IMG/VR virus record: IMGVR_UViG_3300042090_002485
Coordinates: 96,001-160,000 of that record
Origin: a virus
Length of the DNA stretch: 64,000 bases
Reading direction: 5' to 3' (one strand)
The notes beneath the pieces are model-generated. The model did not search any database. It was not told where the DNA came from and worked only from the letters and a program-made list of their open reading frames with translations. The position numbers and the translations under genes were made by a program. Below, piece by piece: positions 21,402 through 56,844 of this stretch; the first letter of the stretch is position 1, and every line of letters starts with the position of its first letter.

Positions 21402-21715
21402 TGGCGAACCCCGAGAACAAGAAGTTCGCGGAAGGCGTCACGATGTCCGACGCTGCCCGTCAGGAAGTTCAGAAGCGCATCGACGCCCGCACTGCGAACG
21501 ATCACCTGCTCGAGGCTGCCAAGGAGGCCGAGGACTTGGTCCGCCTCATGGTCGGACGTTGGCAGGAGCGCGGGTTCACGTTCGAGCAGGGCACGTTTGC
21601 GCTCGCGCTTGCAACCATCAACTTCCGCGAGACCGCACCGGAGAAGAATGGCGGCAAAGAAGCGTTCGACCTCGTCGCGCACGAGGCCCACGTCTACTAC
21701 CACGCCAACAAGTAG
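21401..21715 (+). CDS. Hypothetical protein (104 aa)
   Basis: GGAGG RBS, TGATG overlap. Confidence 0.7.
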   Translation: MANPENKKFAEGVTMSDAARQEVQKRIDARTANDHLLEAAKEAEDLVRLMVGRWQERGFTFEQGTFALALATINFRETAPEKNGGKEAFDLVAHEAHVYYHANK

Positions 21716-21926
21716 CGGGCGGGTATACGGTACCGTCGTCGACGTCGAAGGCGTTCGCCATCACGCGTCAGCCATGTCTCACGCGGTTTTCGGCGGGGAC
21801 ACGATCACCTCGTGCAACCGGTATCTCAGCCTGCCGCCGCAACCCGGCGGCACGGTGACGTGCGTACGCTGCATCGCACGCACGCTGATCCCTGTGAAGG
21901 GGGAGGACATCCTCCGTGGCGACTAG
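21648..21926 (+). CDS. HCCC zinc-finger microprotein 1 (start uncertain)
   Basis: DVEGVRHH...SC...TVTCVRCIA. Confidence 0.6.
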   Translation: MAAKKRSTSSRTRPTSTTTPTSSGRVYGTVVDVEGVRHHASAMSHAVFGGDTITSCNRYLSLPPQPGGTVTCVRCIARTLIPVKGEDILRGD

Positions 21927-22194
21927 CAAGACCGACCCGGACGTCGCCTGGCGCGACGGCGATGCTGAGATCGGGATCGGTTGCGACGACCGCCCACGCA
22001 GCGAGATCATCCACTGGGTGCGTGCGATCGCTTACGGCACCTACGGCTGGTCGCTGAGCCTGGCCTGCGGGCCCGGCCAGGGCTACCGGAGCCGACTCGT
22101 TAAATGGCCGCAGTGGCTGACCCGCGCGCACGTCAACTGCGTGCAGTGCCTCGCAAGCGACCGCTTCGCGCGCTACGCCTACGCGACAAGTTGA
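21916..22194 (+). CDS. HCCC zinc-finger microprotein 2
   Basis: EIIHW...LAC...VNCVQCLA. Confidence 0.65.
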   Translation: MATSKTDPDVAWRDGDAEIGIGCDDRPRSEIIHWVRAIAYGTYGWSLSLACGPGQGYRSRLVKWPQWLTRAHVNCVQCLASDRFARYAYATS

Positions 22195-22219
22195 CGCGTT
22201 TTCACTAATCTTCTATGTT
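22191..22219 (+). promoter_or_regulatory. Sigma70-like promoter TTGACG-N17-TATGTT
   Basis: -35 at 22191-22196, -10 at 22214-22219, AT-rich spacer; same hexamers and spacing recur at 45285; followed by the variant element GTTGGTCTGACAAAC (22217-22231). Confidence 0.75.
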
Positions 22220-22251
22220 GGTCTGACAAACATCACAAGCAAGGAACCACC

Positions 22252-23217
22252 ATGTCTCTCAAGCTCATCAAGCCGACCACCGACGCGCAGCTAACCACGC
22301 ACACGACGACCGATACCCTCGAGGTCACCCCAGACGTCGTGCGGAGCTGGGAACTGCCGCCTTTCCAGCGCGACCTCAAGGTCACCGACCGCCTCATTGA
22401 CATCGCCAAGGAGATCAAGGCGAACTCCGGCGTCATCCCGGGCGTCATCACGCTCGGCGTGCTCGAAAACATCCGTTACAAGGTCGACGGGCAGCATCGC
22501 CTCGAGGCGTTCCTGCAATCGGAGTGTCTCGTCGGGTACTGCGACGTCCGCATCCTGTACTTCAAGACGATGGCCGAGATGGCCGCCGAGTACTACCGGC
22601 TGAACTCGCGCATCGTCAACATGAAGCCGGACGACTATCTCAAGGCGCTCGAGAGCGAGAACACAGCGCTCGCGAAGCTTCGCAAGCGGTGCCCGTTCAT
22701 CGGCTACGGCATGATCCGTCGCAACGACAAGGGTCCGATCTTGTCGATGTCTGCGGTTCTCCGTGGCTGGAACCTGGCGTCCAAGGACACCCCGAGCGGT
22801 GGCGGCTGCGCGACGACGGACATCGCCAAGACGCTTAGCGTCGACGACGTGGACCAGCTCGGCGCGTTCTTGACCGCGGCGATCACTGCGTGGGGGCGCG
22901 ACCGCGAGTACATGCGCCTGTGGGGCGGGCTCAACCTGACCCTGTGTATGTGGCTCTACCGCCGCCTCGTGATCGAGCAATACTCGACCAAGACGCCGAA
23001 GCTCACCAACGAGCAGTTCGGCAAGTGTCTGATGGCGGTGTCGGCGGACTCGCTGTACCTGAACTACTTGCAGGGGCGCCAGCTCTCGCACGAACATCGC
23101 AGCCCGACGTACAACAAGCTCAAGCAGATCTTCGCAGGTCGGATCGAGGTTGACACGGGGAAGAAGCCGCAGCTTCCGCAGCCGTCGTGGACGTCGTCGA
23201 TGCGTGGTCACCGGTAG
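22252..23217 (+). CDS. DGQHR-domain (ParB/DndB superfamily) protein (321 aa)
   Basis: PPFQR...IPGVITLG...VDGQHRLEAF; AAGGA RBS. Confidence 0.82.
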   Translation: MSLKLIKPTTDAQLTTHTTTDTLEVTPDVVRSWELPPFQRDLKVTDRLIDIAKEIKANSGVIPGVITLGVLENIRYKVDGQHRLEAFLQSECLVGYCDVRILYFKTMAEMAAEYYRLNSRIVNMKPDDYLKALESENTALAKLRKRCPFIGYGMIRRNDKGPILSMSAVLRGWNLASKDTPSGGGCATTDIAKTLSVDDVDQLGAFLTAAITAWGRDREYMRLWGGLNLTLCMWLYRRLVIEQYSTKTPKLTNEQFGKCLMAVSADSLYLNYLQGRQLSHEHRSPTYNKLKQIFAGRIEVDTGKKPQLPQPSWTSSMRGHR

Positions 23218-23244
23218 GCGAGGCGACGAACTCTGTCGCGCCTA
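23215..23244. terminator. Possible bidirectional hairpin between convergent genes
   Basis: GCGAC/GTCGC inner stem (7-nt loop) plus TAGGC/GCCTA outer stem containing both stop codons; no U-tract. Confidence 0.3.
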
Positions 23245-31774: not shown

Positions 31775-32188
31775 GTGAAGACATCATCCAAACTCAAGCC
31801 GCTCGAGCCTGTTGACCACGCGCGCTGCCAAGCCGACATCAAGTCAGCGTACAACCCCTTCATCTTCGGCGGAGACGTCGGTGGGAAGTGGGGCCGCTGC
31901 AAGAACAAGCCGATCTGGTACGCCCGTGAGGTCGAGGTCGACGCTAATGGGCGCCGAGGCGCGATGTCACTCTGCGACGAGTGCAAGGTCGAGTGCGAGA
32001 AACGCGTGAAGCGGGCCATATCGTTCGAGCCGCTCGTCGACTGGAACGACAAGTTCCACCAGCTCTACGAGAACCCGAATTGCGTGCCGCGCGAGGAGGT
32101 CGCGCGAGTGCTGCAGGACGCTGGCGCCAACGCGGAGACGGCCGCGGCGTTCGAGCAGCTCATCTTGGGCCACTGGCCGCGCCGGTGA
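31775..32188 (+). CDS. Hypothetical Cys-containing protein (137 aa)
   Basis: RCQ...RC...LCDEC; start uncertain. Confidence 0.6.
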   Translation: MKTSSKLKPLEPVDHARCQADIKSAYNPFIFGGDVGGKWGRCKNKPIWYAREVEVDANGRRGAMSLCDECKVECEKRVKRAISFEPLVDWNDKFHQLYENPNCVPREEVARVLQDAGANAETAAAFEQLILGHWPRR

Positions 32189-32376
32189 CGCTGTCGTACT
32201 ACGCGAAGGGGCCTCTCGTCCATGTCATGTATCGCGGCAACCAGGACCTGGTCTACCACTGGCCGCCCCATCACGAATACCGGTCCCTATGGATGGCGTC
32301 CCGTATCGAGGACCAGCCGATCACCTGCGTCGAATGCCTGGCATTTGTTTGCGCACCGCCCACGTTGGTGCGATAA
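32185..32376 (+). CDS. HCCC zinc-finger microprotein 4 (central ligand may be His)
   Basis: GPLVH...YHWPPHH...PITCVECLA; GTGA overlap. Confidence 0.65.
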   Translation: MTLSYYAKGPLVHVMYRGNQDLVYHWPPHHEYRSLWMASRIEDQPITCVECLAFVCAPPTLVR

Positions 32377-39160: not shown

Positions 39161-39443
39161 ACGCAAGAAGCGCGTCTGGCGTGTGCGTGTCGATGTCACC
39201 CGTGAGGTCGAGGTGTTCGCATCTGACGCCGAAACCGCACAGAAATACGCAGCGGCGCTTGGCATCTACAAACTCAGACGCAAGACCCGCGAAACACGCA
39301 TCACTGACTCAGTGATGTGGGTCGACAGGATGAGCGTCGGACACGTTGAGGGCTGCCGCGGCAAGCACTGCAAGCACTTCAACTGCGACACGGAGACCGA
39401 CGCGCCGTACTACTGCACCACGTGCGATCCGGGGGCTCAGTGA
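39153..39443 (+). CDS. Hypothetical protein with C-terminal Cys cluster (96 aa)
   Basis: CRGKHC...YCTTC. Confidence 0.65.
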   Translation: MTRRKKRVWRVRVDVTREVEVFASDAETAQKYAAALGIYKLRRKTRETRITDSVMWVDRMSVGHVEGCRGKHCKHFNCDTETDAPYYCTTCDPGAQ

Positions 39444-39706
39444 CGCTCGCGGAGGTCCTCCAGCGCATCAAGACGCTGCCTCGAGTCGGTGACAGCGCGA
39501 TCGTTCTGGACAAGCACGGCGTCGCGCACGTTCTCGTCGTCACCGAGGTGAAGAACCGGGGTGCTCGCGCCAACGCGCTCAGTGCAGTGCTCGCCGGCGA
39601 GGTAACGTTCATGTGCGGATGCGAGGCGATGACCTACGAGTCGAAGCAGATCGAGCATCTCGAGATCGCGCCCATCATCACGTGCGTGGTGTGCAGGGCG
39701 CTGTGA
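39440..39706 (+). CDS. HCCC zinc-finger microprotein 6
   Basis: DKHGVAH...FMCG...IITCVVCRA. Confidence 0.72.
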   Translation: MTLAEVLQRIKTLPRVGDSAIVLDKHGVAHVLVVTEVKNRGARANALSAVLAGEVTFMCGCEAMTYESKQIEHLEIAPIITCVVCRAL

Positions 39707-39891
39707 ACAAGCCGAACATCGCCGATGGACATGGTGTCGTGCACCACAACGATGGCACGGACCACTTCGGGTGCGGCGCGTGCTGTACACGCATACCGAC
39801 GACGCGAGCGACCGCCGTTCGCACCACTCGCGAACCTGTCACATGCGTCAAGTGCCTCGCGTGGGCATTCGACCGAAAGTTGGAATCATGA
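39703..39891 (+). CDS. HCCC zinc-finger microprotein 7
   Basis: DGHGVVH...FGCG...PVTCVKCLA. Confidence 0.72.
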   Translation: MNKPNIADGHGVVHHNDGTDHFGCGACCTRIPTTRATAVRTTREPVTCVKCLAWAFDRKLES

Positions 39892-40328: not shown

Positions 40329-40488
40329 GTTCTGTGAGCTGGAGTTCGGCGTGCATCCGCAAGCCAGCGGCGCGGTAAAGCGCCGCCATGCAGCAGGCGG
40401 TTCTTGGCGTCAAGTCCAGGTACGCTGCATCCATGACGGTGCGCGCAGTGCGAACGCCGAGCCAGCAGTCGAAAGTGAGGTTTGATGG

Positions 40489-40503
40489 GTTTACACGATA
40501 AAC
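40489..40503. promoter_or_regulatory. GTT-N6-ATAAAC element, palindromic form GTTTA-N5-TAAAC
   Basis: GTTTACACGATAAAC at the head of the first dense zinc-finger array. Confidence 0.6.
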
Positions 40504-40514
40504 ACAGAGCGCAG

Positions 40515-40736
40515 GTGCCACGTCGCGCAGGCGCGCTCGTCGACCCATCGGGCGTTGTCCATGACCGAATCCACGTCGATTCCGCCAGCACGCCAGAATT
40601 TCACGTCACGCGATGCGAAGACAGCGGACGAGGATTCATCGAAGCCGAGTGGTCAAACGAGGACCTTCGCCCCGCACCACGCTGGACCGCGACGACGTGT
40701 GTAGCGTGCTTGGCCGCGAGGAGGCGCGATGCCTAG
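40515..40736 (+). CDS. HCCC zinc-finger microprotein 8 (alternative start 40485)
   Basis: DPSGVVH...TRCE...ATTCVACLA. Confidence 0.72.
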   Translation: MPRRAGALVDPSGVVHDRIHVDSASTPEFHVTRCEDSGRGFIEAEWSNEDLRPAPRWTATTCVACLAARRRDA

Positions 40737-40920
40737 AGAAAAGGCGTGCAATTTTACAGGGCCTGACGTCTTGATTCACGCAGCGTGGCCTTACAACGGC
40801 ACGAACACAACGCTCTGCGAGTACATGAACTCCGACTACCGGTTCTCTTCAGAGAGCCTGCGTGCAACCAGCACCCCGGTCAACTGCGTGCGGTGCATCG
40901 CGGCGGAAGTTGATGTCTAG
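40729..40920 (+). CDS. HCCC zinc-finger microprotein 9
   Basis: DVLIH...TLCE...PVNCVRCIA. Confidence 0.72.
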   Translation: MPREKACNFTGPDVLIHAAWPYNGTNTTLCEYMNSDYRFSSESLRATSTPVNCVRCIAAEVDV

Positions 40921-41122
40921 GCGTTACCGTCATCGCGACGGCATCGTTCACCTCGCAGCCGACCTCGGCACCAAAACACACATCACGGTGTGCGAACGCG
41001 TCTACGACAAGGATGTCTTCATCAGCGAGGACCTGGCCGAAGTCGACGCGATTGTGACGTGCGCGCGGTGCCTCGGTGCGCCGCAACACATGCACGTCTT
41101 GCACGGGCACGGGCCAGCATGA
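40913..41122 (+). CDS. HCCC zinc-finger microprotein 10
   Basis: RDGIVH...TVCE...IVTCARCLG. Confidence 0.72.
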   Translation: MSRRYRHRDGIVHLAADLGTKTHITVCERVYDKDVFISEDLAEVDAIVTCARCLGAPQHMHVLHGHGPA

Positions 41123-41331
41123 AGTGGCGCTTCTGGCGCGGGTCCAATGGCGTCACGCACGAAACCTTCGGCATAGCCGGCCGCCGATCTATGACGCTGT
41201 GTGAGAACGTCGAGATGCGGATGTTGTACGACGCCGACACGCTCAAGCGTGGCAAGAAGCCCGTGACGTGCGTGATCTGCGTCGCTGAGGGCATCCGACG
41301 AAAGGCAAGGCGCGCCCATGAGCTGGCGTGA
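41119..41331 (+). CDS. HCCC zinc-finger microprotein 11
   Basis: WRGSNGVTH...TLCE...PVTCVICVA. Confidence 0.75.
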   Translation: MKWRFWRGSNGVTHETFGIAGRRSMTLCENVEMRMLYDADTLKRGKKPVTCVICVAEGIRRKARRAHELA

Positions 41332-41524
41332 CCCGACGGGCGTCGCCCACGAGACGGGCGGAAGCCACGGGGCCGCTTCGCTGATGCTATGCGAAGCGTC
41401 GAACGTCGCAACGATGTGGCCTTCAAACGCCCTGAAGGAACACGAGGGACCTACGACGTGCGTACGGTGTCTCGCGGAGCTGGCGCGGCTGCAGTCGCAG
41501 CATCCACGCTACGGTCGCCCCTGA
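41318..41524 (+). CDS. HCCC zinc-finger microprotein 12
   Basis: WRDPTGVAH...MLCE...PTTCVRCLA. Confidence 0.75.
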   Translation: MSWRDPTGVAHETGGSHGAASLMLCEASNVATMWPSNALKEHEGPTTCVRCLAELARLQSQHPRYGRP

Positions 41525-41701: not shown

Positions 41702-41926
41702 ATGCTGCATGAGATGGGGCACCGCGTCAACGACAAAGAGGTGGTCGCGCACTGTTCGCTCGACGACCTGGCGCACCGGTTCACCCAAATTGTCGAGGTC
41801 TCAATATGGCGTTCCTGGTGCGGGGCTCACACCGTGTTGGCCTGGGGATACCTGCCGTTTACCCGCCTCGACGAGCCGGCGACAGCGACGTGTGTGCGGT
41901 GTCAGGCACGCGGCGGACCGCCGTGA
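41702..41926 (+). CDS. HCCC zinc-finger microprotein 13
   Basis: DDLAH...SWCG...TATCVRCQA; GGAGG RBS. Confidence 0.72.
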   Translation: MLHEMGHRVNDKEVVAHCSLDDLAHRFTQIVEVSIWRSWCGAHTVLAWGYLPFTRLDEPATATCVRCQARGGPP

Positions 41927-42132
41927 ACGTCGTCTTCAACTACCTCATCCACGAGGTGTCCCGGACCGAAACGCATTCTCGGTTCGGTCTGACGTTCTGC
42001 GGTTACGCATTCACGCTCGAGTTCTCAACCGGACGCACGTTCCTGCATGTGTTCAGCGCTGACGTGACACGCGCCCCGGTCAACTGCGCTGCCTGCATCG
42101 GTCTTGCTGACGAAAGGGACCCCACCACATGA
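41923..42132 (+). CDS. HCCC zinc-finger microprotein 14
   Basis: NYLIH...TFCG...PVNCAACIG. Confidence 0.72.
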   Translation: MNVVFNYLIHEVSRTETHSRFGLTFCGYAFTLEFSTGRTFLHVFSADVTRAPVNCAACIGLADERDPTT

Positions 42133-43140: not shown

Positions 43141-43242
43141 ATGCGCTGGACGCTGAAGATTCTCGGGTTCCTGGTCAAGGTCCGCGCTCATGTGCGTGCC
43201 GGCGGAACCGTGCCCGTGATGGCGTACTGGAGAAGCACGTGA
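43141..43242 (+). CDS. Small basic peptide (33 aa)
   Basis: MRWTLKILGFLVKVRAHVRAGGTVPVMAYWRST; stop overlaps the next GTG; preceded by GATAAACATC. Confidence 0.5.
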   Translation: MRWTLKILGFLVKVRAHVRAGGTVPVMAYWRST

Positions 43243-43472
43243 AAGGCAGCGCACCGTGCGAAGGCTCGCCGGTTCGTGACCACGCTCGCGATGATGGCGT
43301 CGTACATCGCTCGATGCGGGACCAGAGCCAGTACCGCCCGCACGAAGCCTACGTGCCGTGCATGGGCTGGCGCAAAGCACGCGAGCTGCTGTGGGTCGAC
43401 AAAGAAGCGCCTATCACGTGCGCAGCGTGCATCGGGACCGTTGTCACGAACATGCCGATGAGGCCGCGATGA
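43239..43472 (+). CDS. HCCC zinc-finger microprotein 16
   Basis: DDGVVH...VPCMGWR...PITCAACIG. Confidence 0.72.
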   Translation: MKGSAPCEGSPVRDHARDDGVVHRSMRDQSQYRPHEAYVPCMGWRKARELLWVDKEAPITCAACIGTVVTNMPMRPR

Positions 43473-49190: not shown

Positions 49191-49191
49191 G

Positions 49192-49389: not shown

Positions 49390-49922
49390 CGCGCGAGACG
49401 GTTAAGCAGTGCAAGAGCTGCCCGTGGCGTGTCGATTGCGTGCCCGATCGTGACATCCCTAACTACGTCAGGAGTCTCCACAAGGGTCTCGACGGCACCA
49501 TCGCAGAGCCGGGAGACCTGCGCGGGTTGCGCGCGACCACGCTGCGCGTGATGGCCTGCCACTACTCCAAGCCCAGCGAAGAATTCCCGTGCGCGGGCTG
49601 GTTGTACAACCAGCTCGGTCCCGGCAACAACATCGCGGTGCGGCTCCGTGTGATGACCGGCAAGATGCCGGCACCGGAAGTTGATGGGCCGCAACACGAA
49701 ACTTTCGAGGAAACGTTATGCGCACCTTCGGATGGGCAGACGACCATGGAGTCGTGCACGACGTCGTCCCTCGCTCGAGCGACCTTTGGGGCACCATCGT
49801 CTACCAGTTGCGCTGCCGCCCCACCCAAAACATCCGCTACCTGGCCTACACCGAAAACACGACGACGTGCGTCCAGTGCATCGCCGACGCGGTCCGCGAC
49901 GAGAAGGGGACGTAAGCCGTGA
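49386..49922 (+). CDS. Cys-rich phage protein (DUF6283-like) with an apparently extended 3' end
   Basis: QCKSCPWR...MACH.S...CAGWL...NIAVRL; tail after FEETL is compositionally non-coding-like and overlaps gene 49718-49915. Confidence 0.6.
   Translation: MTRETVKQCKSCPWRVDCVPDRDIPNYVRSLHKGLDGTIAEPGDLRGLRATTLRVMACHYSKPSEEFPCAGWLYNQLGPGNNIAVRLRVMTGKMPAPEVDGPQHETFEETLCAPSDGQTTMESCTTSSLARATFGAPSSTSCAAAPPKTSATWPTPKTRRRASSASPTRSATRRGRKP
49718..49915 (+). CDS. HCCC zinc-finger microprotein 19
   Basis: WADDHGVVH...LRC...TTTCVQCIA. Confidence 0.75.
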   Translation: MRTFGWADDHGVVHDVVPRSSDLWGTIVYQLRCRPTQNIRYLAYTENTTTCVQCIADAVRDEKGT

Positions 49923-50344
49923 AGACCGAGGGCTTCAAGGTCGGCGACGTCGTCTTCTACGACGGGCGGCGCGCAAGGGTGACGACGGTACTCGCTGGTG
50001 AGTACGGTCAGCGCGTCGAGTTCCGTATTGACCAGGGCGGGGCCATCATCACGACAACGCCTGGCCTCGACCCAAGGTTCAGCGCAGAAGACACGTCGAC
50101 GCCTGACTTCATTGTAGCCGACGGTCACCCGGCCATCGACAGCTATGGTGTCGTTCACGCGTGCCACGACAACCTGCGCGGGCATCCGCAGGCAGTGTCA
50201 ATCTGCTCGTCGGTCAACGCCTTCCATCGGGTGATCCCATGCGAGAGTACAGTACTTACGTGCGTACGCTGCATCAACACCACCAAGGCCTGGACGGTGC
50301 CCATTTATGAACGAGCCTATGATCGGGACGTGGATCTGCTCTAA
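49919..50344 (+). CDS. SH3-like domain fused to HCCC zinc finger 20 (141 aa)
   Basis: FKVGDVVFYDGRRARV... then DSYGVVH...SIC...VLTCVRCI. Confidence 0.72.
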   Translation: MKTEGFKVGDVVFYDGRRARVTTVLAGEYGQRVEFRIDQGGAIITTTPGLDPRFSAEDTSTPDFIVADGHPAIDSYGVVHACHDNLRGHPQAVSICSSVNAFHRVIPCESTVLTCVRCINTTKAWTVPIYERAYDRDVDLL

Positions 50345-50519: not shown

Positions 50520-50706
50520 ATGGGCACTCCGTGGTCCGCTGCAGGCCGTTCTTTTGGACGGCGTAATGCACTACGCGCTGTCGTCCGGGGTGTTAACCTG
50601 CGACACGTTTCCTATCGGACCTGAGTATCTCCACGAAGACAACGTACCGGACCAGGTTGCGACCTGCGTGTGGTGCTGCGTTCACAAGACCAAGAGGACC
50701 CCATGA
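50497..50706 (+). CDS. HCCC zinc-finger microprotein 22
   Basis: LDGVMH...LTCD...VATCVWCC. Confidence 0.7.
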   Translation: MTTTITTKWALRGPLQAVLLDGVMHYALSSGVLTCDTFPIGPEYLHEDNVPDQVATCVWCCVHKTKRTP

Positions 50707-51134
50707 AGCTTGCGCAAGCCCTGTATCACCTCTACTGCGACGACGCCGGTTGGAAGAACTTCCAAGGCAACAAGTGCCCGCAGTGGGACGAGCTGCCGGA
50801 GCCCATCCGCACCCACTGGACAGTGGTCGCGCAGATGTTCGAGAGCCTGACGTTCAACCGACTCGTCGCGATGCGTGACCGTCCCGAGATGTTCGCGTGC
50901 ACCTACGACGGGTTCCTCGGCCAGCTCGGCACGATCTTCGACTACGCGACGGTGTACCTCTCCCCTGGCACGCGCGACAAAGCGTCGCGCGAGCACATGA
51001 TGAAGCTCGTGCACGACGGCCCGAGCGGCGTGATTCAGGCCAATGCGCGCTTTGGTGACGACGAGGCCTCGCTCGAGTGGGCACGAGCCGCCGTCGACCA
51101 GACGAAGAAGCGCATCGAGGAGCTGACGGCATGA
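50703..51134 (+). CDS. Hypothetical protein (143 aa)
   Basis: LYHLYC...WKNFQG..CPQWDELP..IR.HW; GAGG RBS, ATGA overlap. Confidence 0.75.
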   Translation: MKLAQALYHLYCDDAGWKNFQGNKCPQWDELPEPIRTHWTVVAQMFESLTFNRLVAMRDRPEMFACTYDGFLGQLGTIFDYATVYLSPGTRDKASREHMMKLVHDGPSGVIQANARFGDDEASLEWARAAVDQTKKRIEELTA

Positions 51135-51439
51135 TCGTGGGCATGATCGAGGGCGTCGTCCAGGACGACATCGCCGAGCTGGAGGTGCCGGTCTTCCTGG
51201 CGTGGGACGCGCCTACCCTCGTCACCCACGCGGCAACGCTCTACCGCACGGGAAAGCCCTACATCTGGTGCTACGGCGAGGTCCAGGATATGAACGTCAC
51301 CCTTGCACACCGTAACCCAGTGACGTGCGTGCTATGCCGCGCGCGCGGTCCGCGCGGAGTGTGGATTGCCACCGGGAGCAGGCACGGACGTGTCGAAATG
51401 CGTCGCGGTGCGCCCAGTATCACGCTGGATACGGAATGA
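51131..51439 (+). CDS. HCCC zinc-finger protein 23
   Basis: TLVTH...IWC...PVTCVLCRA. Confidence 0.72.
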   Translation: MIVGMIEGVVQDDIAELEVPVFLAWDAPTLVTHAATLYRTGKPYIWCYGEVQDMNVTLAHRNPVTCVLCRARGPRGVWIATGSRHGRVEMRRGAPSITLDTE

Positions 51440-51672
51440 CCGAGCGGGCGTACGTGAAGGCGCTCTCGCCGTACGACACGCTCACGCACCTAGCGGAGGA
51501 AACCTTGGGAACATGGCGAGGTGACATTGCGTCGGTCCTCCAGCTGCCGTGCCGCCCGGGGACTACCGAAATTCTGCCCGCGTCGGTGTTCTTGGGTGAG
51601 GACGACGCGGTCGTGACGTGCGCGCTGTGCCTGGCCGCCATGGTTAACAACCCATCCAAGGAGCCGCCGTGA
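51436..51672 (+). CDS. HCCC zinc-finger microprotein 24
   Basis: DTLTH...LPC...VVTCALCLA. Confidence 0.72.
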   Translation: MTERAYVKALSPYDTLTHLAEETLGTWRGDIASVLQLPCRPGTTEILPASVFLGEDDAVVTCALCLAAMVNNPSKEPP

Positions 51673-52025
51673 GGGGCGCGCAGTTCGACGGCGACATTGC
51701 TACAGCGTCCGCCGAGAAGCTGCTCGAGGAGTTCGAGCGCCTCGAGGCCGAAGAGCGCGCGTTCATCACGGACAACCAGCACCACCTGCTGGCAGACATG
51801 GAGAACCCCTACGACGGCCTGCTCGAGCTGATCGGCAAAGCAAGCCAGGCGCGGTTTAAGTGCACAGTGCGCTTCCTGCGCGAAAACGGGGTCGTGCGCG
51901 CGTCGTGGACGCACGCGGGCGTCACTCACAACTACCTGGGCCGCGGTTGGTGCGCAGGCAAGGTGCGGCTCGACCGCCCGACGCAGCCAGTGACCTGCGT
52001 CGAGTGCTTGGCGAGGCATCCATGA
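51669..52025 (+). CDS. Acidic helical domain fused to HCCC zinc finger 25 (118 aa)
   Basis: WTHAGVTH...GWC...PVTCVECLA. Confidence 0.72.
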   Translation: MRGAQFDGDIATASAEKLLEEFERLEAEERAFITDNQHHLLADMENPYDGLLELIGKASQARFKCTVRFLRENGVVRASWTHAGVTHNYLGRGWCAGKVRLDRPTQPVTCVECLARHP

Positions 52026-52597
52026 GCAAGCGCATGACCCGCCCGCCGCGCGTGGTCTACGCGACCAAGCGCGAGCGCAACATCCTCGACGAAGTCCGCG
52101 TGCGTCCGTCGTTTGGCGCCATCGTCAAGCGGGCACGCGAAATCGGTGACTGGAACTTCGTTGCGTTCAAGGGTCGCCCGGCCCTGCGGTGCAAAGAAAC
52201 CGAGTTCGTGCTCGTTGGCGGGCATCCCGAGAACATCTGCGTGGTGTGGTGGGCTTGCCTCGACTACCTCAACAACTTCGAGAGCATGGTGCGAGCGCTG
52301 TTCGGCAGCCGCTCACAGGCCGACGGCGCGCACGTGCTGTGGGGCGGCAGCCATGGCGAGGGGACGGAGACCCGCCGCATGGTCGCCCGCGCGGCGCTCG
52401 CGCTCGCTGCCGACAAGGTTCTGGGCCGCGCAGCGCCCGATGAGCGCATCGTCCTGGTCGACACCACAGGCATCACGCACGACATGATTTGGATGGAGGC
52501 GATCGGCTGCGACGAGGAGGTATACGTCAAGTGCCCCGAACGTGGCGCCGCGCCAACGTGCGCGCGATGCATCGCGGCTCGCGTAGTGTCGCCATGA
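52022..52597 (+). CDS. Unknown N-terminal domain fused to HCCC zinc finger 26 (191 aa)
   Basis: DTTGITH...IGC...APTCARCIA. Confidence 0.72.
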   Translation: MSKRMTRPPRVVYATKRERNILDEVRVRPSFGAIVKRAREIGDWNFVAFKGRPALRCKETEFVLVGGHPENICVVWWACLDYLNNFESMVRALFGSRSQADGAHVLWGGSHGEGTETRRMVARAALALAADKVLGRAAPDERIVLVDTTGITHDMIWMEAIGCDEEVYVKCPERGAAPTCARCIAARVVSP

Positions 52598-52764
52598 CGA
52601 CGTGGACCGATGCGCATGGCGTCGTGCACATTTGCACGCAGTGGGTCGTCTCCAAGCGATGGACCCTAACGTGCGACGTCGACATGTACGTGACCCCTGA
52701 CAAAATCGCGAGGCCTCCGGTGTGTGTCCTGTGCCTCGCAACGTGGTTGGAAGGGCAATCATGA
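52594..52764 (+). CDS. HCCC zinc-finger microprotein 27 (56 aa)
   Basis: WTDAHGVVH...LTCD...PVCVLCLA. Confidence 0.75.
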   Translation: MTTWTDAHGVVHICTQWVVSKRWTLTCDVDMYVTPDKIARPPVCVLCLATWLEGQS

Positions 52765-52940
52765 CGTGGACCGACTTCAAAACGGGCATCACGCACGAGA
52801 TGACCGAGAACGACGAACATGGCGTCTGGTTCACGTCGTTGTGCTGCGGCTGCGATGTACGATGGCACTGGGCTGAAGCCCGCGGCACGCTCGTGACGTG
52901 CGTGGTGTGCATCGCGATCCTGATGAGGCGCACGTCATGA
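52761..52940 (+). CDS. HCCC zinc-finger microprotein 28 (59 aa)
   Basis: MTWTDFKTGITHEM...SLCC...LVTCVVCIA. Confidence 0.75.
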   Translation: MTWTDFKTGITHEMTENDEHGVWFTSLCCGCDVRWHWAEARGTLVTCVVCIAILMRRTS

Positions 52941-53128
52941 CGTGGACCGATCCCACCGGCATCACCCACGAGATGGTACGCACAGCGAACTTCAAGACGA
53001 CGTTCGGTTACGGCCTCAACTGCGAACCCGCGCTGTTGTTCGGCATGGGCGCGTCGAATTGGCCGACGCGTGTGGTGACGTGCGTGAAGTGCCGAGCGGC
53101 CGAGCCATGGCCGGGGCCGGGCCTATGA
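52937..53128 (+). CDS. HCCC zinc-finger microprotein 29 (63 aa)
   Basis: MTWTDPTGITHEM...LNCE...VVTCVKCRA. Confidence 0.75.
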   Translation: MTWTDPTGITHEMVRTANFKTTFGYGLNCEPALLFGMGASNWPTRVVTCVKCRAAEPWPGPGL

Positions 53129-53334
53129 CGTTGACCTGGCGCGACGCCGCGGGCGTTGTTCACCGCGTCTATGACGTGACGGGCTGGATGTTTATGTGTC
53201 CCTATGACCTCCGAATATGTAGGTTCTTTGGGTGCGACGTCCTAACGACGATCAGCGACGAGGCAATTCGAGTCGACGGCGTGGTGACGTGCGTGGAGTG
53301 CTTGGCCGTGCTGGCCATCACAGGAAAGGAGTAA
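53125..53334 (+). CDS. HCCC zinc-finger microprotein 30 (69 aa)
   Basis: WRDAAGVVH...C...VVTCVECLA. Confidence 0.75.
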   Translation: MTLTWRDAAGVVHRVYDVTGWMFMCPYDLRICRFFGCDVLTTISDEAIRVDGVVTCVECLAVLAITGKE

Positions 53335-53794
53335 CCATGCTTATCCGGTTGTCACCCAAGGAATGCGTAACTCATGAAACGTAAGAAGGTCACAGAGGCG
53401 TTCCAGTATTTGGACGTCGACTGGAATCGCACGTTCAAGCCGAAGTGGAGTGACTCGGCCGTCGAGTTGACCTTCTACAAAGGCAAGGTGCTCGTCAGCG
53501 TGCCGTACGGCACCGCGCGCGCGAAGGCACTCCAGGAGCAAACAGGGTTCGTCGTGGCGGGGTCCGCGTGGCTTCACGCCAAGGATATCGACGGCCTCAT
53601 CAAGCTCCTGCGTGAAGGACGCCGCGTCTATATGCAGCACCAGCGAGATGCTCTCAAGGTCGCCAACTGCGATGACTGTCGCAAGATTTTCGGCGGTGTC
53701 TGCGATCGTCACCGACCGCTGTTCAAGAAGTACGGCAAGAAGAAATCTCCGCCACGGGGACTCCGATGACTGGGTGTCAACCGGATAAGCATGG
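53335..53794. mobile_element. 460-bp non-autonomous element with 24-bp terminal inverted repeats and a 6-bp direct repeat, carrying one ORF
   Basis: Left CCATGCTTATCCGGTTGTCACCCA (53335-53358) vs right TGGGTGTCAACCGGATAAGCATGG (53771-53794): 23/24 complementary; GAGTAA at 53329-53334 and 53795-53800. Confidence 0.75.
53374..53769 (+). CDS. Basic cargo protein of the IR-bounded element (131 aa)
   Basis: Fills the space between the IRs; C-terminal CDDC...CDRH; no DDE or tyrosine-recombinase motif recognised. Confidence 0.75.
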   Translation: MKRKKVTEAFQYLDVDWNRTFKPKWSDSAVELTFYKGKVLVSVPYGTARAKALQEQTGFVVAGSAWLHAKDIDGLIKLLREGRRVYMQHQRDALKVANCDDCRKIFGGVCDRHRPLFKKYGKKKSPPRGLR

Positions 53795-53802
53795 GAGTAA
53801 CC

Positions 53803-53979
53803 ATGTTCCTGCCTGCTATGGAGGGCCGCTACGTCGACAACGACTACATCACGCACGTGTGCGTGCTGCAGACGATAGGTGTGCACCGATGGCGTACCCG
53901 CTGCAGTCTGACCCCAACGAACGCGCAGGTTGACCATATCCGAGTCACGGTCACCTGTGTGTTGTGCATCGCGCCGTGA
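53803..53979 (+). CDS. HCCC zinc-finger microprotein 31
   Basis: DYITH...TRC...TVTCVLCIA; GGAG RBS. Confidence 0.72.
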   Translation: MFLPAMEGRYVDNDYITHVCVLQTIGVHRWRTRCSLTPTNAQVDHIRVTVTCVLCIAP

Positions 53980-54164
53980 GCCGTCGCGATCGAGACCCGG
54001 TGTGGTCTGACGACAGCGGCATTGTGCATCGCCTCTACCCTGGGTCTTCATTACGCTTGCGCGTTGCTTGTAGCAGCTTCGACTACCAGAAACCCGACCG
54101 ACGCGGGCGCTACGTGCGGCGGATCGTCACATGTGTCCGCTGCCTCGCGACGTTCGCGCGATAA
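53976..54164 (+). CDS. HCCC zinc-finger microprotein 32
   Basis: WSDDSGIVH...VAC...IVTCVRCLA. Confidence 0.75.
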   Translation: MSRRDRDPVWSDDSGIVHRLYPGSSLRLRVACSSFDYQKPDRRGRYVRRIVTCVRCLATFAR

Positions 54165-54166
54165 AC
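54152..54166 (+). promoter_or_regulatory. GTT-N6-ATAAAC element
   Basis: GTTCGCGCGATAAAC followed by ATCA, 29 nt upstream of ATG 54196. Confidence 0.6.
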
Positions 54167-54195
54167 ATCATCACAACAGGAAGGAGGCAACGAAC

Positions 54196-54411
54196 ATGTC
54201 CAAGCAGCTCAAGAGCACCGCCCCGTCCCGCTCCGTCATCGACGTCGGCCCCGGCGACTACATCAAGATCGGCTCGCACTGGGAGAAGATCACCTCGAAC
54301 AGTGCCCAGGGCGCGGAGCACACGCCGCGGAGCTGGAGCGTGCGCACCGAGCGCGGGGAGTACGGGATGTTCGGCATCAACCGGTACGCCAAAGCGGAGG
54401 ACCTCGAATGA
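54196..54411 (+). CDS. Small SH3/KOW-like protein (71 aa)
   Basis: AAGGAGG RBS; DVGPGDYIKIG..WEKI. Confidence 0.75.
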   Translation: MSKQLKSTAPSRSVIDVGPGDYIKIGSHWEKITSNSAQGAEHTPRSWSVRTERGEYGMFGINRYAKAEDLE

Positions 54412-54572
54412 ACGGTTGCTGCATGGCCTCGTGCGACGGACGTAGCCACGACCTCGAGTGCCGCTGGTATTGGCCTTGCGGCTGTCCTAAAGAACGACCT
54501 GCAGGGGCAAAGCGCGCAAAGCCACACGTGCATCGCTACGAAGAACCCGATGACAACGAGGACCTCGAGTGA
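54408..54572 (+). CDS. Small Cys-rich peptide (54 aa)
   Basis: MNGCCMASCDGRSHDLEC...CGC...; overlaps at both ends. Confidence 0.6.
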   Translation: MNGCCMASCDGRSHDLECRWYWPCGCPKERPAGAKRAKPHVHRYEEPDDNEDLE

Positions 54573-54802
54573 CGTTCGACGAAGACGACACCCGCATCCG
54601 TGTTCGCGCGGGCAATCACGCAGTGGTGCGTCGAGTCCGCGACGACTTCGTTCACCTCATCATTCCACGCCGGCGCGGCCCTGACGATGTCGCACTAACC
54701 GCGGCGTGCCATGCACCATGGGCGATGTGGACGTACGCCCGTGTGGACGCGCCGCTGACCTGTGTGTTGTGCATCGCATACGATATTCAATGCCCGTCAT
54801 GA
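54569..54802 (+). CDS. HCCC zinc-finger microprotein 33
   Basis: DDFVH...AAC...PLTCVLCIA. Confidence 0.72.
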   Translation: MTFDEDDTRIRVRAGNHAVVRRVRDDFVHLIIPRRRGPDDVALTAACHAPWAMWTYARVDAPLTCVLCIAYDIQCPS

Positions 54803-54987
54803 ACGTGTCGCTGCCGTCTCTCGAGGGCGATCGCGCGGTCGCCCCTGACGGCGTCGTTCATGTCTGGGACAAGCTAGTCGACGGCACGATCTGCGGCTCG
54901 CAGGTCGAATGGTGGCGATTCCGGCTCGTCAACAGGGACACGCTCGTGACGTGCGTGGGATGTGTCGCTCGTGCGCCCGCGGACTAA
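54799..54987 (+). CDS. HCCC zinc-finger microprotein 34
   Basis: PDGVVH...TICG...LVTCVGCVA. Confidence 0.72.
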   Translation: MNVSLPSLEGDRAVAPDGVVHVWDKLVDGTICGSQVEWWRFRLVNRDTLVTCVGCVARAPAD

Positions 54988-55177
54988 CAAATACACGCGC
55001 CCTGGCGACACCGTCGTGGATAGCACAGGCATCACGCACGTCGTCATAGACACCGACGCGTACTGGATATGGTCGCACTGCCTCGTTCGCGGGATGCCCC
55101 CCGACTGGCGCGTGCGCGACGTCGCACCAACGTGCGTGCTCTGCATCGCAAAGAGGATTCAACTTGGCACCTATTAA
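54962..55177 (+). CDS. HCCC zinc-finger microprotein 35
   Basis: DSTGITH...SHC...APTCVLCIA. Confidence 0.72.
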   Translation: MSLVRPRTNKYTRPGDTVVDSTGITHVVIDTDAYWIWSHCLVRGMPPDWRVRDVAPTCVLCIAKRIQLGTY

Positions 55178-55382
55178 CTGCTTCTATGCGATCGGGGACG
55201 TCGTCCACATCGCGCGTTGCACGATGAGCACGTGGCGGTTGTTGTGCTGGGACGACGGAGACATCCCGCTCGGCGAGTACGGCCCCGAACCCATACACCC
55301 TGGCCCGCCCACGTGCGCGGCGTGCGTCGGGCGTGCACCTCGGGACCTCTACGACATGCTGCTCGAGCCGTCCCGTGCCTAA
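55164..55382 (+). CDS. HCCC zinc-finger microprotein 36
   Basis: GDVVH...LLC...PPTCAACVG. Confidence 0.7.
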   Translation: MAPINCFYAIGDVVHIARCTMSTWRLLCWDDGDIPLGEYGPEPIHPGPPTCAACVGRAPRDLYDMLLEPSRA

Positions 55383-55587
55383 GCTCCCCGCCGATCACGT
55401 CGCGCCGCACACCGACGCCAAGGGCATCACGCACGTCGCGATCGTCTTCGACGGCAGCTGGGTCGTGCGCTGCAACTGGGTATACCTGGCGAGCTGGCAG
55501 GTCCAGGCGTCCATCGGAGCCGTGGTCACATGCGCGACCTGCGTGGCGCTCGCGCCAGACGTGTTCTACGAGAAGGAGAGGTACTGA
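55375..55587 (+). CDS. HCCC zinc-finger microprotein 37
   Basis: DAKGITH...VRC...VVTCATCVA. Confidence 0.72.
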   Translation: MPKLPADHVAPHTDAKGITHVAIVFDGSWVVRCNWVYLASWQVQASIGAVVTCATCVALAPDVFYEKERY

Positions 55588-55811
55588 TGGCACGCGCGGG
55601 TAACTACGACGAAACCCAGGGTGCCGCGGCATGGCGCACCACCGACGGCCTCATTCACGTTGTGACCGCGATGCGACGAGACAAGGGGTGGCAGCAGTTG
55701 TGCCGTGTCCACGGGCTCGACGTCGGCAAGACGCTGCCTGGAGACCGTTCGGACCATCTAGTCACGTGCGTCCGCTGCATCGCACAGCTAATCTACCTGG
55801 CGGCGTTGTGA
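55587..55811 (+). CDS. HCCC zinc-finger microprotein 38
   Basis: WRTTDGLIH...QLC...LVTCVRCIA. Confidence 0.75.
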   Translation: MARAGNYDETQGAAAWRTTDGLIHVVTAMRRDKGWQQLCRVHGLDVGKTLPGDRSDHLVTCVRCIAQLIYLAAL

Positions 55812-56014
55812 GGCGTGTCCTGCCCGGGCACCGCGTCGCATGTCCCGATGGCTTGGTTCACCTTGTGTACGAGGTCGATATCAGCCCTCCACGGATCTAC
55901 GTGCACTGCCCAAACGACTTTCCGCGGAACCGCGTGCAGATCGTGCTGACGCAACCGCTGACGTGCGTGGTGTGCTTGACCTGCGAGCTGCGCGGAGATG
56001 CCGATGACCCGTGA
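55808..56014 (+). CDS. HCCC zinc-finger microprotein 39
   Basis: PDGLVH...VHC...PLTCVVCLT. Confidence 0.72.
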   Translation: MRRVLPGHRVACPDGLVHLVYEVDISPPRIYVHCPNDFPRNRVQIVLTQPLTCVVCLTCELRGDADDP

Positions 56015-56186
56015 TGGTGCAGGACGGCGTGTTGCCTCGTACGGTCTCATCCACATCGTGGATTTCTTTCTCTTCGGAGACGCTGTTACGTTGTGCAACG
56101 TCACCCCTCTCAACATCGACGAATGGGAGTACTCTCGTCGCCGTACCACATGCGTGCTGTGCATCGCACTGGAGAACAAACAATGA
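55998..56186 (+). CDS. HCCC zinc-finger microprotein 40
   Basis: SYGLIH...TLC...RTTCVLCIA. Confidence 0.72.
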   Translation: MPMTRDGAGRRVASYGLIHIVDFFLFGDAVTLCNVTPLNIDEWEYSRRRTTCVLCIALENKQ

Positions 56187-56662
56187 ACGAACACATGGAC
56201 GAACAAGAACATCAACGACTCCACCAAGAAGCCAACCAGATGATCTGCGACCTGCTCAACAGGTTCGCCGACGAAGCACAGCTGGCCATGCACGCGCGCT
56301 TCAACTGCCCGGAGTCGGATGAATCGCCCGAGGCGCGCCGGCGGCGCGACTGCATCTCGCAAGAGGTCCACGGCGCGCTTGCGCAGGCCACGGGCGCGAT
56401 GGAGGGGTTCCTCGTCGCACGCGGCGCCGAAGCGCTAGAGGCGTACCGGGATCGTGTCCGGTCGTTCATGAACGGCTACGTCACCGGGCTGCGCGCCGGC
56501 GGCGTACCCGCGGAGCAGATCCCGGCGGTGATCAACCAGATCGGTGCGACGATGGTCGAAGCGGGAACGCCAATGGCGCCCGCATCGCAGGAGCCGATAC
56601 GTCGGTCAGGGAGGCCACTGCGTGAGGTGATGGCGGGGCGGCGGCACCGGAGACGGCGATGA
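56183..56662 (+). CDS. Hypothetical helical protein (159 aa)
   Basis: GGAG RBS, ATGA overlap. Confidence 0.7.
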   Translation: MNEHMDEQEHQRLHQEANQMICDLLNRFADEAQLAMHARFNCPESDESPEARRRRDCISQEVHGALAQATGAMEGFLVARGAEALEAYRDRVRSFMNGYVTGLRAGGVPAEQIPAVINQIGATMVEAGTPMAPASQEPIRRSGRPLREVMAGRRHRRRR

Positions 56663-56844
56663 TGCGACCGTATCGCATACGCGACGGCTTCGGTGTCGTG
56701 CACATCGAAAGTCTTCTCGCCGGGTATCCGCTGTGCAACCGGGAGCGTCGCCTGTTCGACGCCGACATCATTGGTCGCGAGGCCCTTGTCACCTGCGCCA
56801 GCTGCATCGGCGCGGCCCTCAACACCACTAGGAACGCCACATGA
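56659..56844 (+). CDS. HCCC zinc-finger microprotein 41
   Basis: DGFGVVH...PLC...LVTCASCIG. Confidence 0.75.
   Translation: MMRPYRIRDGFGVVHIESLLAGYPLCNRERRLFDADIIGREALVTCASCIGAALNTTRNAT

What the first reader, a model, noticed from the sequence alone, without database searches (positions are those of the whole stretch)
21648..56844. Expanded family of 41 hypervariable HCCC zinc-finger microproteins: candidate undescribed system
Seen: 41 plus-strand ORFs (42 domains), mostly 55-90 aa, share the scaffold (W)-x-D-x-x-G-[VI]-[VT]-H ... C ... [VIT]-T-C-[VA]-x-C-[LIV]-A. The segments between the four putative ligands are largely unalignable and vary in length. They make up a large fraction of the genes in the 40-kb plus-strand block. 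Established knowledge: an H-C-C-C zinc finger of unknown function (Pfam zf-HC3) has a similar ligand order; identity with that family is untested. Inference: a fixed Zn-stabilised scaffold with hypervariable loops looks like a diversified binder repertoire, e.g. inhibitors of host defence or regulatory proteins. Zinc sequestration or redox sensing are alternatives. I know of no described phage system with this copy number.
Basis: partly seen in the sequence, partly recalled or inferred. Interest (0 to 1): 0.92.

Follow-up and report, generated by a model that had tools for sequence, protein, structure and literature searches.

The report
Eighty-copy zinc-finger mini-protein family in phage
A 188-kb uncultured phage spends about 11% of its genome on some 80 tandem genes for tiny proteins that share only one histidine and three cysteines (a probable zinc clip) and differ almost everywhere else; this looks like a large repertoire of small binders aimed at the host, and no comparable phage case was found in the searches run here.

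Summary
An unbiased six-frame HMM finds 40 family genes in 21648-56844 and 80 in the whole 187,862-bp genome (11.4% of bases). All lie on the + strand and none on the - strand. They look like real genes: they show coding-type GC3, 30 of 55 close junctions are 4-nt start/stop overlaps, and independent assemblies call them too.

Only His, three Cys and the T-C-V-x-C-[LI]-A flank are conserved; loop columns are near random. Two AlphaFold models (pLDDT 79 and 75) share strands at the His and a C-terminal helix capped by C-x-x-C. Neither matches a PDB or BFVD structure.

No member passes Pfam zf-HC3. A sub-threshold bridge ORF and ESM-Atlas shape matches suggest distant kinship.

The family is expanded (about 18-58 profile matches per record, some records incomplete) in related uncultured phages whose RNA polymerase is at least 74% identical. 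It was not found in more distant relatives or in phage Arash, and it is single-copy in one lambdoid phage. Paralogs are at most 45% identical and orthologs are barely traceable.

The function is untested. The best reading is a Zn-stapled binder repertoire for host takeover or counter-defence. First-stage notes of this scan had already flagged this family in overlapping windows of the same genome.

The parts
21648..21926 (+). HCCC family gene, 92 aa
   Evidence: family HMM hit; coordinates
21916..22194 (+). HCCC family gene, 92 aa
31221..31766 (+). HCCC family gene, 181 aa; start uncertain; long N-terminal extension
   Evidence: weak with the window-only model (E 0.16-0.44), significant with genome-trained models; no Pfam domain in the extension
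31981..32376 (+). HCCC family gene, 131 aa
34274..34561 (+). HCCC family gene, 95 aa
   Evidence: E 2.7e-17
39422..39706 (+). HCCC family gene, 94 aa
   Evidence: about 52% identical to a syntenic copy in sister record G012
39703..39891 (+). HCCC family gene, 62 aa; 4-nt overlap with the previous gene
40485..40736 (+). HCCC family gene, 83 aa
40729..40920 (+). HCCC family gene, 63 aa; AGGAGG ribosome-binding site
40910..41122 (+). HCCC family gene, 70 aa
41119..41331 (+). HCCC family gene, 70 aa
   Evidence: the adjacent gene is its best paralog at 42%
41318..41524 (+). HCCC family gene, 68 aa; query of the first AlphaFold model
41702..41926 (+). HCCC family gene, 74 aa; divergent
   Evidence: E 0.003 with the window model, 1.1e-6 with the genome model
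41923..42132 (+). HCCC family gene, 69 aa
42129..42677 (+). HCCC family gene, 182 aa; domain at the C-terminus; the claimed second N-terminal domain is not significant
43239..43472 (+). HCCC family gene, 77 aa
43469..43687 (+). HCCC family gene, 72 aa
44916..45155 (+). HCCC family gene, 79 aa; just after the M20 peptidase gene
49718..49915 (+). HCCC family gene, 65 aa; first gene of the densest array (22 genes in 7.1 kb)
   Evidence: also called in an independent assembly
49919..50344 (+). HCCC family gene, 141 aa
50307..50519 (+). HCCC family gene, 70 aa
51131..51439 (+). HCCC family gene, 102 aa
51436..51672 (+). HCCC family gene, 78 aa
51669..52025 (+). HCCC family gene, 118 aa; weakest hit in the span
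   Evidence: E 1.6e-4
52022..52597 (+). HCCC family gene, 191 aa; C-terminal domain
52594..52764 (+). HCCC family gene, 56 aa
52761..52940 (+). HCCC family gene, 59 aa; shares the M-T-W-T-D...G-I-T-H-E-M start with the next gene
52937..53128 (+). HCCC family gene, 63 aa
53125..53334 (+). HCCC family gene, 69 aa
53803..53979 (+). HCCC family gene, 58 aa
53976..54164 (+). HCCC family gene, 62 aa
54569..54802 (+). HCCC family gene, 77 aa
   Evidence: carries the only SNP among the near-identical strains
54799..54987 (+). HCCC family gene, 62 aa (protein P0009)
54962..55177 (+). HCCC family gene, 71 aa
55164..55382 (+). HCCC family gene, 72 aa
55375..55587 (+). HCCC family gene, 70 aa
55587..55811 (+). 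HCCC family gene, 74 aa
55808..56014 (+). HCCC family gene, 68 aa
56004..56186 (+). HCCC family gene, 60 aa
56659..56844 (+). HCCC family gene, 61 aa; last copy in the window

Best explanation
This is a lineage-specific multigene family of small (mostly 55-100 aa), soluble, single-domain proteins. In each, one His and three Cys most likely bind one Zn2+. SHOWN: there are 80 copies, all on the + strand, in tandem and mostly translationally coupled arrays that take up 11.4% of a complete 188-kb phage genome. Only the four ligands and the residues flanking C-x-x-C are conserved. The closest paralogs tend to be neighbours. Copies are old or fast-diverging, at 45% identity or less. Turnover between related phages is faster than for other genes. 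INFERRED from two AlphaFold models: the metal site ties the N-terminal strands that carry the His, and the mid-chain Cys, to the N-cap of a long C-terminal helix that begins at C-x-x-C. The two inter-ligand loops and both tails are then free to change in sequence, length and even secondary structure. INFERRED function: the copies form a repertoire of binders with different surfaces. They would be made in bulk from long polycistronic runs, and each would engage a different host protein or nucleic acid, for host takeover or for neutralising defence systems. The repertoire would grow by tandem duplication and be reshuffled quickly as hosts change. This resembles the terminal multigene families of large eukaryotic DNA viruses.
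For: Real, selected genes: GC by codon position is 0.61/0.50/0.77, and GC3 is highest in 70 of 79 ORFs. Thirty of 55 close junctions are 4-nt overlaps. Independent ENA and Logan assemblies call the same small ORFs. Ligand columns are invariant across paralogs about 30% identical and across 115 outside homologues. Scaffold: AF2 pLDDT 79.3 / pTM 0.62 and 74.7 / 0.60; in both models the His lies on or next to N-terminal strands and C-x-x-C caps a C-terminal helix, while the middle is a helix in one and a hairpin in the other. Diversity: pI 4.2-10.7, 3-4 Cys in 53 of 74, no TM segments. Duplication: the best paralog lies within 2 gene ranks in 24% of cases against 5% expected, and 0 of 2000 permutations reach this. 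Turnover: 11% of family genes have a hit in sister phage G002, against 43% of other small genes and about 70% of larger genes; median identity 39% against 55-57%. Clade restriction: 18-58 matches per record in relatives with RNAP >=74% identical (84-100% complete), 7 at 68%, 0 at 36-54% and 0 in Arash. No enzyme-sized domain and no fused known domain. Arash packages the homologous RNAP in its virion (PMC10585845), which fits host-independent early expression.
Against: Zn rather than Fe-S is assumed from the ligand set only. The models are of moderate confidence, I could not inspect coordinates, and site geometry is unverified. No hit in the defence-related library, and no anti-defence library was available. 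Expression timing is unknown: there is no promoter signal above shuffles, and the + strand also carries replication genes. Faster turnover would also fit weak selection on individual copies.
Confidence: 0.45

Rival explanations
1. The copies are nucleic-acid-binding regulators. As small Zn-finger proteins they would bind DNA or RNA and tune the phage's own transcription or translation programme, for example as accessory factors for the phage-encoded multisubunit RNA polymerase, with the paralogs recognising different sites.
For: Small Zn-stabilised domains often bind nucleic acids (general knowledge). The phage encodes its own RNAP. Thirty-four of 74 members are basic, with pI above 8. In the lambdoid contig L143 the single copy sits in the early regulatory/nin-type region next to NinB.
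Against: Nineteen of 74 members are acidic and 21 neutral. Eighty regulators for about 300 genes is implausible. No HTH or known DNA-binding fold was matched. Loop sequences show no conserved basic patch.
Confidence: 0.2
2. The expansion is weakly selected or selfish. The arrays would be a by-product of runaway tandem duplication, acting as a gene nursery: only the fold is kept, so that the products do no harm, and individual copies have little or no function.
For: Orthologs are almost untraceable between related phages, and retention is lower than for other small genes. Copy number varies widely among relatives.
Against: The four ligands and the flanking motif are invariant across hundreds of very divergent copies in several lineages, and frames are intact with no pseudogenes noticed. 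That implies purifying selection on each copy. A packaging-limited phage genome would not be expected to carry 21 kb of neutral DNA. The near-identical strains kept all copies.
Confidence: 0.12
3. The copies are iron-sulfur or redox/metal-sensing proteins. The 3Cys-1His set would bind a 2Fe-2S cluster, as in mitoNEET-type CDGSH proteins, or the proteins would buffer zinc or respond to oxidative stress.
For: A 3Cys-1His set is a known Fe-S ligand set (own knowledge). Weak Atlas shape rows to ferredoxin and radical-SAM fragments at TM 0.36-0.41.
Against: Those TM scores are below meaningful levels. There is no CDGSH-like spacing. With only 3-4 Cys per protein the family is not metallothionein-like. 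Sensing or buffering does not explain why 80 highly divergent copies would be needed.
Confidence: 0.07
4. The copies are virion-packaged, ejected proteins. They would be small internal proteins loaded into the capsid and injected with the DNA to act in the first minutes of infection.
For: The related phage Arash packages many non-structural proteins, RNAP included.
Against: The arrays lie outside the minus-strand structural blocks. No shared targeting peptide was seen: N-termini are variable. The Arash paper mentions no zinc or paralog family, and Arash lacks the family.
Confidence: 0.05

Closest known systems
Pfam PF16827 zf-HC3 (zinc finger of unknown function)
   Same: Same ligand order, H...C...C-x-x-C, and similar size. 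The best ESM-Atlas shape matches (TM 0.62-0.68 over 57-63 residues) are small bacterial hypothetical-protein clusters, and in one of them 23% of members carry zf-HC3. One sister-phage family ORF scores 20.5 bits over model positions 9-62 of 67.
   Different: No member reaches the 25-bit cut-off. The best in this genome is 7.5 bits, and 0 of 115 outside members score at E<=0.1. According to the Atlas rows, zf-HC3 is mainly in Actinomycetota. It was not found above cut-off in 401 sampled Pseudomonadota genomes. No massive expansion of it is known to me, and it has no known function.
Multigene families of large eukaryotic DNA viruses, such as the African swine fever virus MGFs and poxvirus ankyrin or host-range families (own knowledge)
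   Same: Tandem paralog arrays in accessory genome regions towards an end of a linear genome, growth by duplication, fast turnover between relatives, and a presumed host-interaction role.
   Different: Those are larger proteins of eukaryotic viruses with known folds and partly known immune-evasion functions. Here the proteins are 55-100 aa metal-clip domains in a bacteriophage, with no function shown.
Small early host-takeover proteins of lytic phages (T4, T7, SPO1, phiKZ) and paralogous anti-CRISPR families at the genome ends of archaeal viruses (own knowledge)
   Same: Many small genes in polycistronic runs, each thought to hit a different host factor.
   Different: Those sets are mostly unrelated in sequence, or have a few paralogs. 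Here about 80 share one scaffold.
Zn site of T4 gp32, formed by His64, Cys77, Cys87 and Cys90 (own knowledge)
   Same: Same ligand order and a structural Zn in a phage protein.
   Different: That site is a sub-domain of a 301-aa ssDNA-binding protein with different spacing. The PDB sequence-profile search returned no phage or zinc-binding protein.
Diversity-generating retroelements
   Same: A conserved scaffold with hypervariable binding surface in phage proteins.
   Different: No reverse transcriptase in the genome and no template/variable repeat pair: paralogs share only about 20-nt patches. Diversity here is spread across paralogs and is not written into one gene.

Membership tests
Pfam PF16827 zf-HC3 | Score at or above the curated 25-bit gathering threshold | tested here: not met
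   Best 7.5 bits (E 1.1) in this genome. One of 34 members at E 0.19. None of 115 outside members at E<=0.1. Best in five sister phages 20.5 bits.
Pfam PF16827 zf-HC3 | H-C-C-C ligand order in a domain of about 60-70 residues | tested here: met
   Invariant H, C and C-x-x-C columns.
Pfam PF16827 zf-HC3 | Distant homology shown by profile-profile or structure comparison | tested here: inconclusive
   Atlas shape TM 0.62-0.66 to a cluster in which 23% of members carry zf-HC3. The bridge ORF G002:1830-2087 scores about 20 bits on both models. No zf-HC3 alignment could be obtained for hhalign.
Pfam PF27025 DUF8336 (Atlas by-features row 3; 28% of that cluster) | HMM match | not testable with these tools
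   The model is not in the local Pfam copy. Precomputed Pfam labels on the small genes of related contigs are all '-'.
Diversity-generating retroelement target protein | A reverse transcriptase plus a template/variable repeat pair | tested here: not met
   No PF00078 match. No long nucleotide repeats among the paralogs.
Metallothionein-like metal store | High cysteine content with many C-x-C or C-C motifs | tested here: not met
   Three Cys in 30 of 74 members and four in 23 of 74.
Zinc-binding anti-sigma (ZAS) domain | H-x3-C-x2-C motif | tested here: not met
   The His lies a median of 17+1+20 residues upstream of C-x-x-C. No Pfam hit.
Classical zinc ribbon or treble-clef finger | Structural match to a solved zinc ribbon or treble clef | tested here: inconclusive
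   No solved zinc-ribbon or treble-clef chain appeared among the best rows: Foldseek E>=2.6, VIA best Z 2.7 and 4.0 to PWWP domains. C-x-x-C at a helix N-cap resembles half of a treble clef.
Viral multigene family (functional class, not a homology family) | Tandem paralog arrays, proximity-biased duplication, lineage-specific copy number | tested here: met

The most novel reading that the evidence does not exclude
A clade of phages of about 185-195 kb that carry their own RNA polymerase maintains a germline library of Zn-stapled mini-binders, 20-80 per genome. Each would neutralise a different host defence or housekeeping protein, so the repertoire as a whole, not any single gene, would set host range. 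This would be a phage counterpart of the multigene immune-evasion families of large eukaryotic viruses, and a natural minimal binder scaffold of about 60 aa.
Probability: 0.25. Interest if true: 0.9.

Novelty: new variant of a known kind. Interest (0 to 1): 0.72.

Why it matters
To my knowledge, phage genomes are compact and paralog families of more than a handful of members are unusual. Spending 11% of a complete genome on about 80 copies of one tiny metal-clip domain, in several related lineages, suggests strong selection for breadth. If the copies are binders of host factors, they offer a ready-made panel for finding new anti-defence or host-takeover activities. They would also provide a model for how phages diversify such functions by duplication, as opposed to horizontal acquisition. 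The scaffold itself, about 60 aa with four fixed residues, would interest protein engineers. The family also provides sequence and predicted-structure context for the orphan Pfam family zf-HC3.

Tried and rejected
- **Sequence libraries.** Pfam, PHROGs and PADLOC scans of members gave nothing.
- **Structure libraries.** PDB Foldseek, two PDB-wide VIA searches and BFVD gave nothing significant: best Z 2.7 and 4.0, both to PWWP domains, which only suggests a small strands-plus-helix layout.
- **PDB sequence profile.** The best hit was E 0.035 to a W-x-D-x-x-G-x-I-H hairpin in lectin propeller blades. I rejected it as a short-motif resemblance.
- **Cultured phages.** megablast of the window's main arrays (39,000-57,000) and tblastn of three members against GenBank phages found no match.
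- **Searches that failed or added nothing.** The search for related loci on the family alignment failed because no stretch was conserved enough. Word-indexed homologue searches added nothing.
- **Selection analysis.** The near-identical strains L057-L060 gave only 1 SNP in the arrays, so dN/dS could not be computed. Syntenic pairs with G012 are about 50% identical, which is too saturated.
- **'Conserved ends, replaced middles'.** This rests on one stretch of about 36 nt and there are no long nucleotide repeats, so it is not established.
- **Fusions and signals.** N-terminal extensions carry no Pfam domain above its curated cut-off; one sub-threshold Bbp19-like hit, 19.6 bits against 25. Sigma-70 promoter and terminator counts equal those of shuffles.
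- **Corrected misreading.** I first took contig L142 for an actinophage because of its GP88 domain. The window itself carries GP88, and L142 is syntenic with it.
- **zf-HC3 sequences.** An attempt to obtain them from 401 Pseudomonadota genomes found none above cut-off.

Full report
**Observation**

A strict regex for G-[VIL]-x-H...C...[TS]-C-x-x-C found 22 matches on the + strand and none on the - strand. An HMM seeded from these and iterated over every six-frame ORF of the window converged on 38 significant copies, again all on the + strand. A model retrained on the whole genome gives 40 ORFs inside 21648-56844, 39 of them at E<1e-5. The claimed extra domain in 42129-42677 is not significant.

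In a MAFFT alignment of 34 members the only invariant columns after Met1 are H, C, C and C. Over all copies, column identity is:
- H 100% and each C 99-100%;
- the T before the second Cys 89%, the V after it 80%, and the A after the last Cys 78%;
- loop columns at most about 30%.

Loop lengths range from 5 to 48 residues (H to C) and from 14 to 147 residues (C to C-x-x-C).

**Are they genes?**

- GC by codon position in the family frame is 0.61/0.50/0.77. This is the coding pattern of this 65%-GC genome, and GC3 is the highest position in 70 of 79 ORFs.
- Of 55 close junctions between consecutive family genes, 30 are 4-nt ATGA/GTGA overlaps and 20 are other short overlaps.
- Gene callers applied to independent ENA and Logan assemblies of near-identical strains list the same small ORFs.
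- The ligand columns remain invariant among 115 homologues from other samples that are only 20-40% identical.

**The genome**

The window is bases 96,001-160,000 of a 187,862-bp IMG/VR record with direct terminal repeats, rated 100% complete.

The family has 80 copies genome-wide, all on the + strand, and covers 21.5 kb or 11.4% of the genome. Clusters lie at 86 kb (3 copies), 117-153 kb and 166-183 kb. The densest block holds 22 genes in 7.1 kb.

The phage encodes a fused beta/beta-prime multisubunit RNA polymerase, a family A DNA polymerase, a primase and helicases. Its nearest cultured relatives by the RNAP are Salmonella phage Arash and Vibrio phages D181, D148 and D69, at only 34-36% identity. 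Arash was published as an orphan phage, and its RNAP beta subunit is the protein detected most in virions (PMC10585845).

The window's M20 peptidase is closest to proteins of Burkholderiales and Rhodospirillales at 40-44% identity, which is only a weak host hint.

**Structure**

| Model | Length | Alignment depth | pLDDT | pTM |
|---|---|---|---|---|
| First member | 68 aa | 34 sequences | 79.3 | 0.62 |
| Divergent member, distal cluster | 84 aa | 149 sequences | 74.7 (all five models 71-75) | 0.60 |

In both models the His lies on or next to N-terminal beta strands, and C-x-x-C sits at the N-cap of a long C-terminal helix.

The common outer frame and the variable middle match the sequence pattern. 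I could not inspect coordinates, so the four-ligand geometry is inferred.

Neither model has a meaningful PDB or BFVD match: Foldseek E was at least 0.7, and the best VIA Z was 2.7 and 4.0, in both cases to PWWP domains.

**Relation to known families**

Pfam, PHROGs and PADLOC give nothing. Four tests of zf-HC3 (PF16827) membership all fall short of its 25-bit cut-off:
- the best score in this genome is 7.5 bits;
- 1 of 34 members reaches E 0.19;
- 0 of 115 outside members score at E<=0.1;
- the best score in five sister phages is 20.5 bits.

Two results still point to distant kinship:
- The best ESM-Atlas shape matches (TM 0.62-0.68, 57-63 residues, rmsd 2.1-2.8) are small bacterial hypothetical-protein clusters, and in one of them 23% of members carry zf-HC3.
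- The sister-phage ORF that scores 20.5 bits on PF16827, over positions 9-62 of 67, scores about 20 bits on my family models and carries the full signature.

I conclude that the family is not a zf-HC3 member as Pfam defines it, but is probably a distant relative. zf-HC3 itself has no known function and almost no literature.

**Distribution**

An exhaustive profile search of 1.84 billion representatives found 151 proteins at E<=1e-3. Of the 150 listed, 26 are this genome's own and 124 come from elsewhere. All 124 carry the motif, all 20 looked up are metagenomic and carry no functional name, and a few have two domains.

Using the RNAP to define the lineage in IMG/VR, profile matches per record are as follows.

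| Relatives, by RNAP identity to this phage | Family matches per record |
|---|---|
| >=74% identical (records 84-100% complete) | 18-48 with the window profile; 58 in the complete 184,915-bp G002 with the genome-trained model |
| 68% (G004) | 7 |
| 36-54% (including a 95%-complete record) | 0 |
| Salmonella phage Arash | 0 |

Other contigs also carry dense arrays:
- L005, from an NCBI assembly: about 22 copies in 11.6 kb;
- L145: about 30 copies in 12 kb;
- L144, at 54% GC and with sister contigs up to 194 kb: about 36 copies in 20 kb.

A lambdoid temperate contig with CI/Cro, NinB, GcrA and Dam has a single copy just after NinB. No GenBank phage matched three members by tblastn.

**Evolution**

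- The best paralog is a median of 35% identical and never above 45%.
- Paralogs share only patches of about 20 nt at the DNA level, over the V-T-C-V-x-C codons, so there are no recent duplicates.
- The best paralog lies within two gene positions in 24% of cases against 5% expected, and 0 of 2000 permutations reach this. That indicates tandem duplication.
- Against sister phage G002, best cross-genome hits are no better than paralog hits. Only 11% of family genes have a hit at E<1e-3 and 60% coverage, against 43% of other small genes and about 70% of larger genes.
- The genome has no reverse transcriptase, so a DGR is excluded.

**Mechanism**

The following is shown:
- a real, selected family that carries a conserved four-residue metal-ligand set;
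- growth by tandem duplication;
- extreme divergence and fast turnover;
- expansion restricted to one clade.

The rest is inferred. A structural Zn would clip strands to a helix, leaving the loops and tails free, and the copies would act as a repertoire of binders for different host targets. I rate this at about 0.45.

The wide pI spread and low Cys content argue against a uniform DNA-binding role or a metal store. Rivals are regulators (0.2), weakly selected duplicates (0.12), Fe-S or redox proteins (0.07) and ejected virion proteins (0.05).

**Novelty and limits**

Literature searches found no described phage family of this scale; these searches cover open-access text only. The kind of system, a viral multigene family, is known from large eukaryotic viruses. 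The scaffold, the copy number and the phage setting are new.

Everything about function rests on inference from sequence and predicted structure. The host is unknown.

Noticed in passing
window 53335-53794: An insert of about 460 bp, bounded by 24-nt inverted repeats (96% complementary), sits between two family genes. It holds one 131-aa ORF (53374-53769) with no Pfam hit and is single-copy in this genome. Its layout recalls the mini mobile elements of mycobacteriophages (own knowledge).
   Followed up: partly
window 32373, 40498, 43132 and 54161; genome 6567, 12638, 18100, 23273 and 74930: The motif ATAAACA occurs 10 times on the + strand and twice on the - strand, against about 1.6 expected per strand. 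It is often part of a near-palindrome TGTTTAY-N3-4-ATAAACA lying 13-27 nt before + strand start codons, including that of the DNA polymerase gene. It is a candidate phage promoter or operator and is not specific to the arrays.
   Followed up: partly
window about 59017-59190, within the minus-strand 841-aa gene 57180-59705: Otherwise near-identical strains differ by a 126-bp indel inside an internally repetitive tape-measure-like tail gene.
   Followed up: partly
window 45347-47428: A 693-aa protein of unknown function (phrog_1735; labelled DUF8224 in precomputed Pfam) is 42-46% identical to proteins in hundreds of large phages of Salmonella, Klebsiella, Pseudomonas, Caulobacter and others.
   Followed up: partly
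window 30108-31013 and 43684-44940: A GP88-domain protein (PF17338) and an M20 peptidase sit among the arrays. The peptidase is closest to Burkholderiales and Rhodospirillales proteins at 40-44% identity, a weak hint to the host phylum.
   Followed up: partly
genome 54348-59762 (L008:14348-19762, minus strand), outside the window: An 1804-aa ORF fuses RNAP beta with the N-terminal part of beta-prime, and a separate 592-aa ORF carries further beta-prime-like regions. The homologue in phage Arash is the protein detected most in virions.
   Followed up: partly
G002:C1:1830-2087 (L042): A sister-phage ORF scores about 20 bits on both the phage family model and Pfam zf-HC3. It is the best bridge between the two families.
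   Followed up: yes
proteins P0011, P0032, P0035, P0041, P0050, P0054, P0073, P0123, P0149: Metagenomic homologues with two HCCC domains in one chain, probably fusions of adjacent array genes. One other homologue, P0144, has an N-terminal hydrophobic segment.
   Followed up: no
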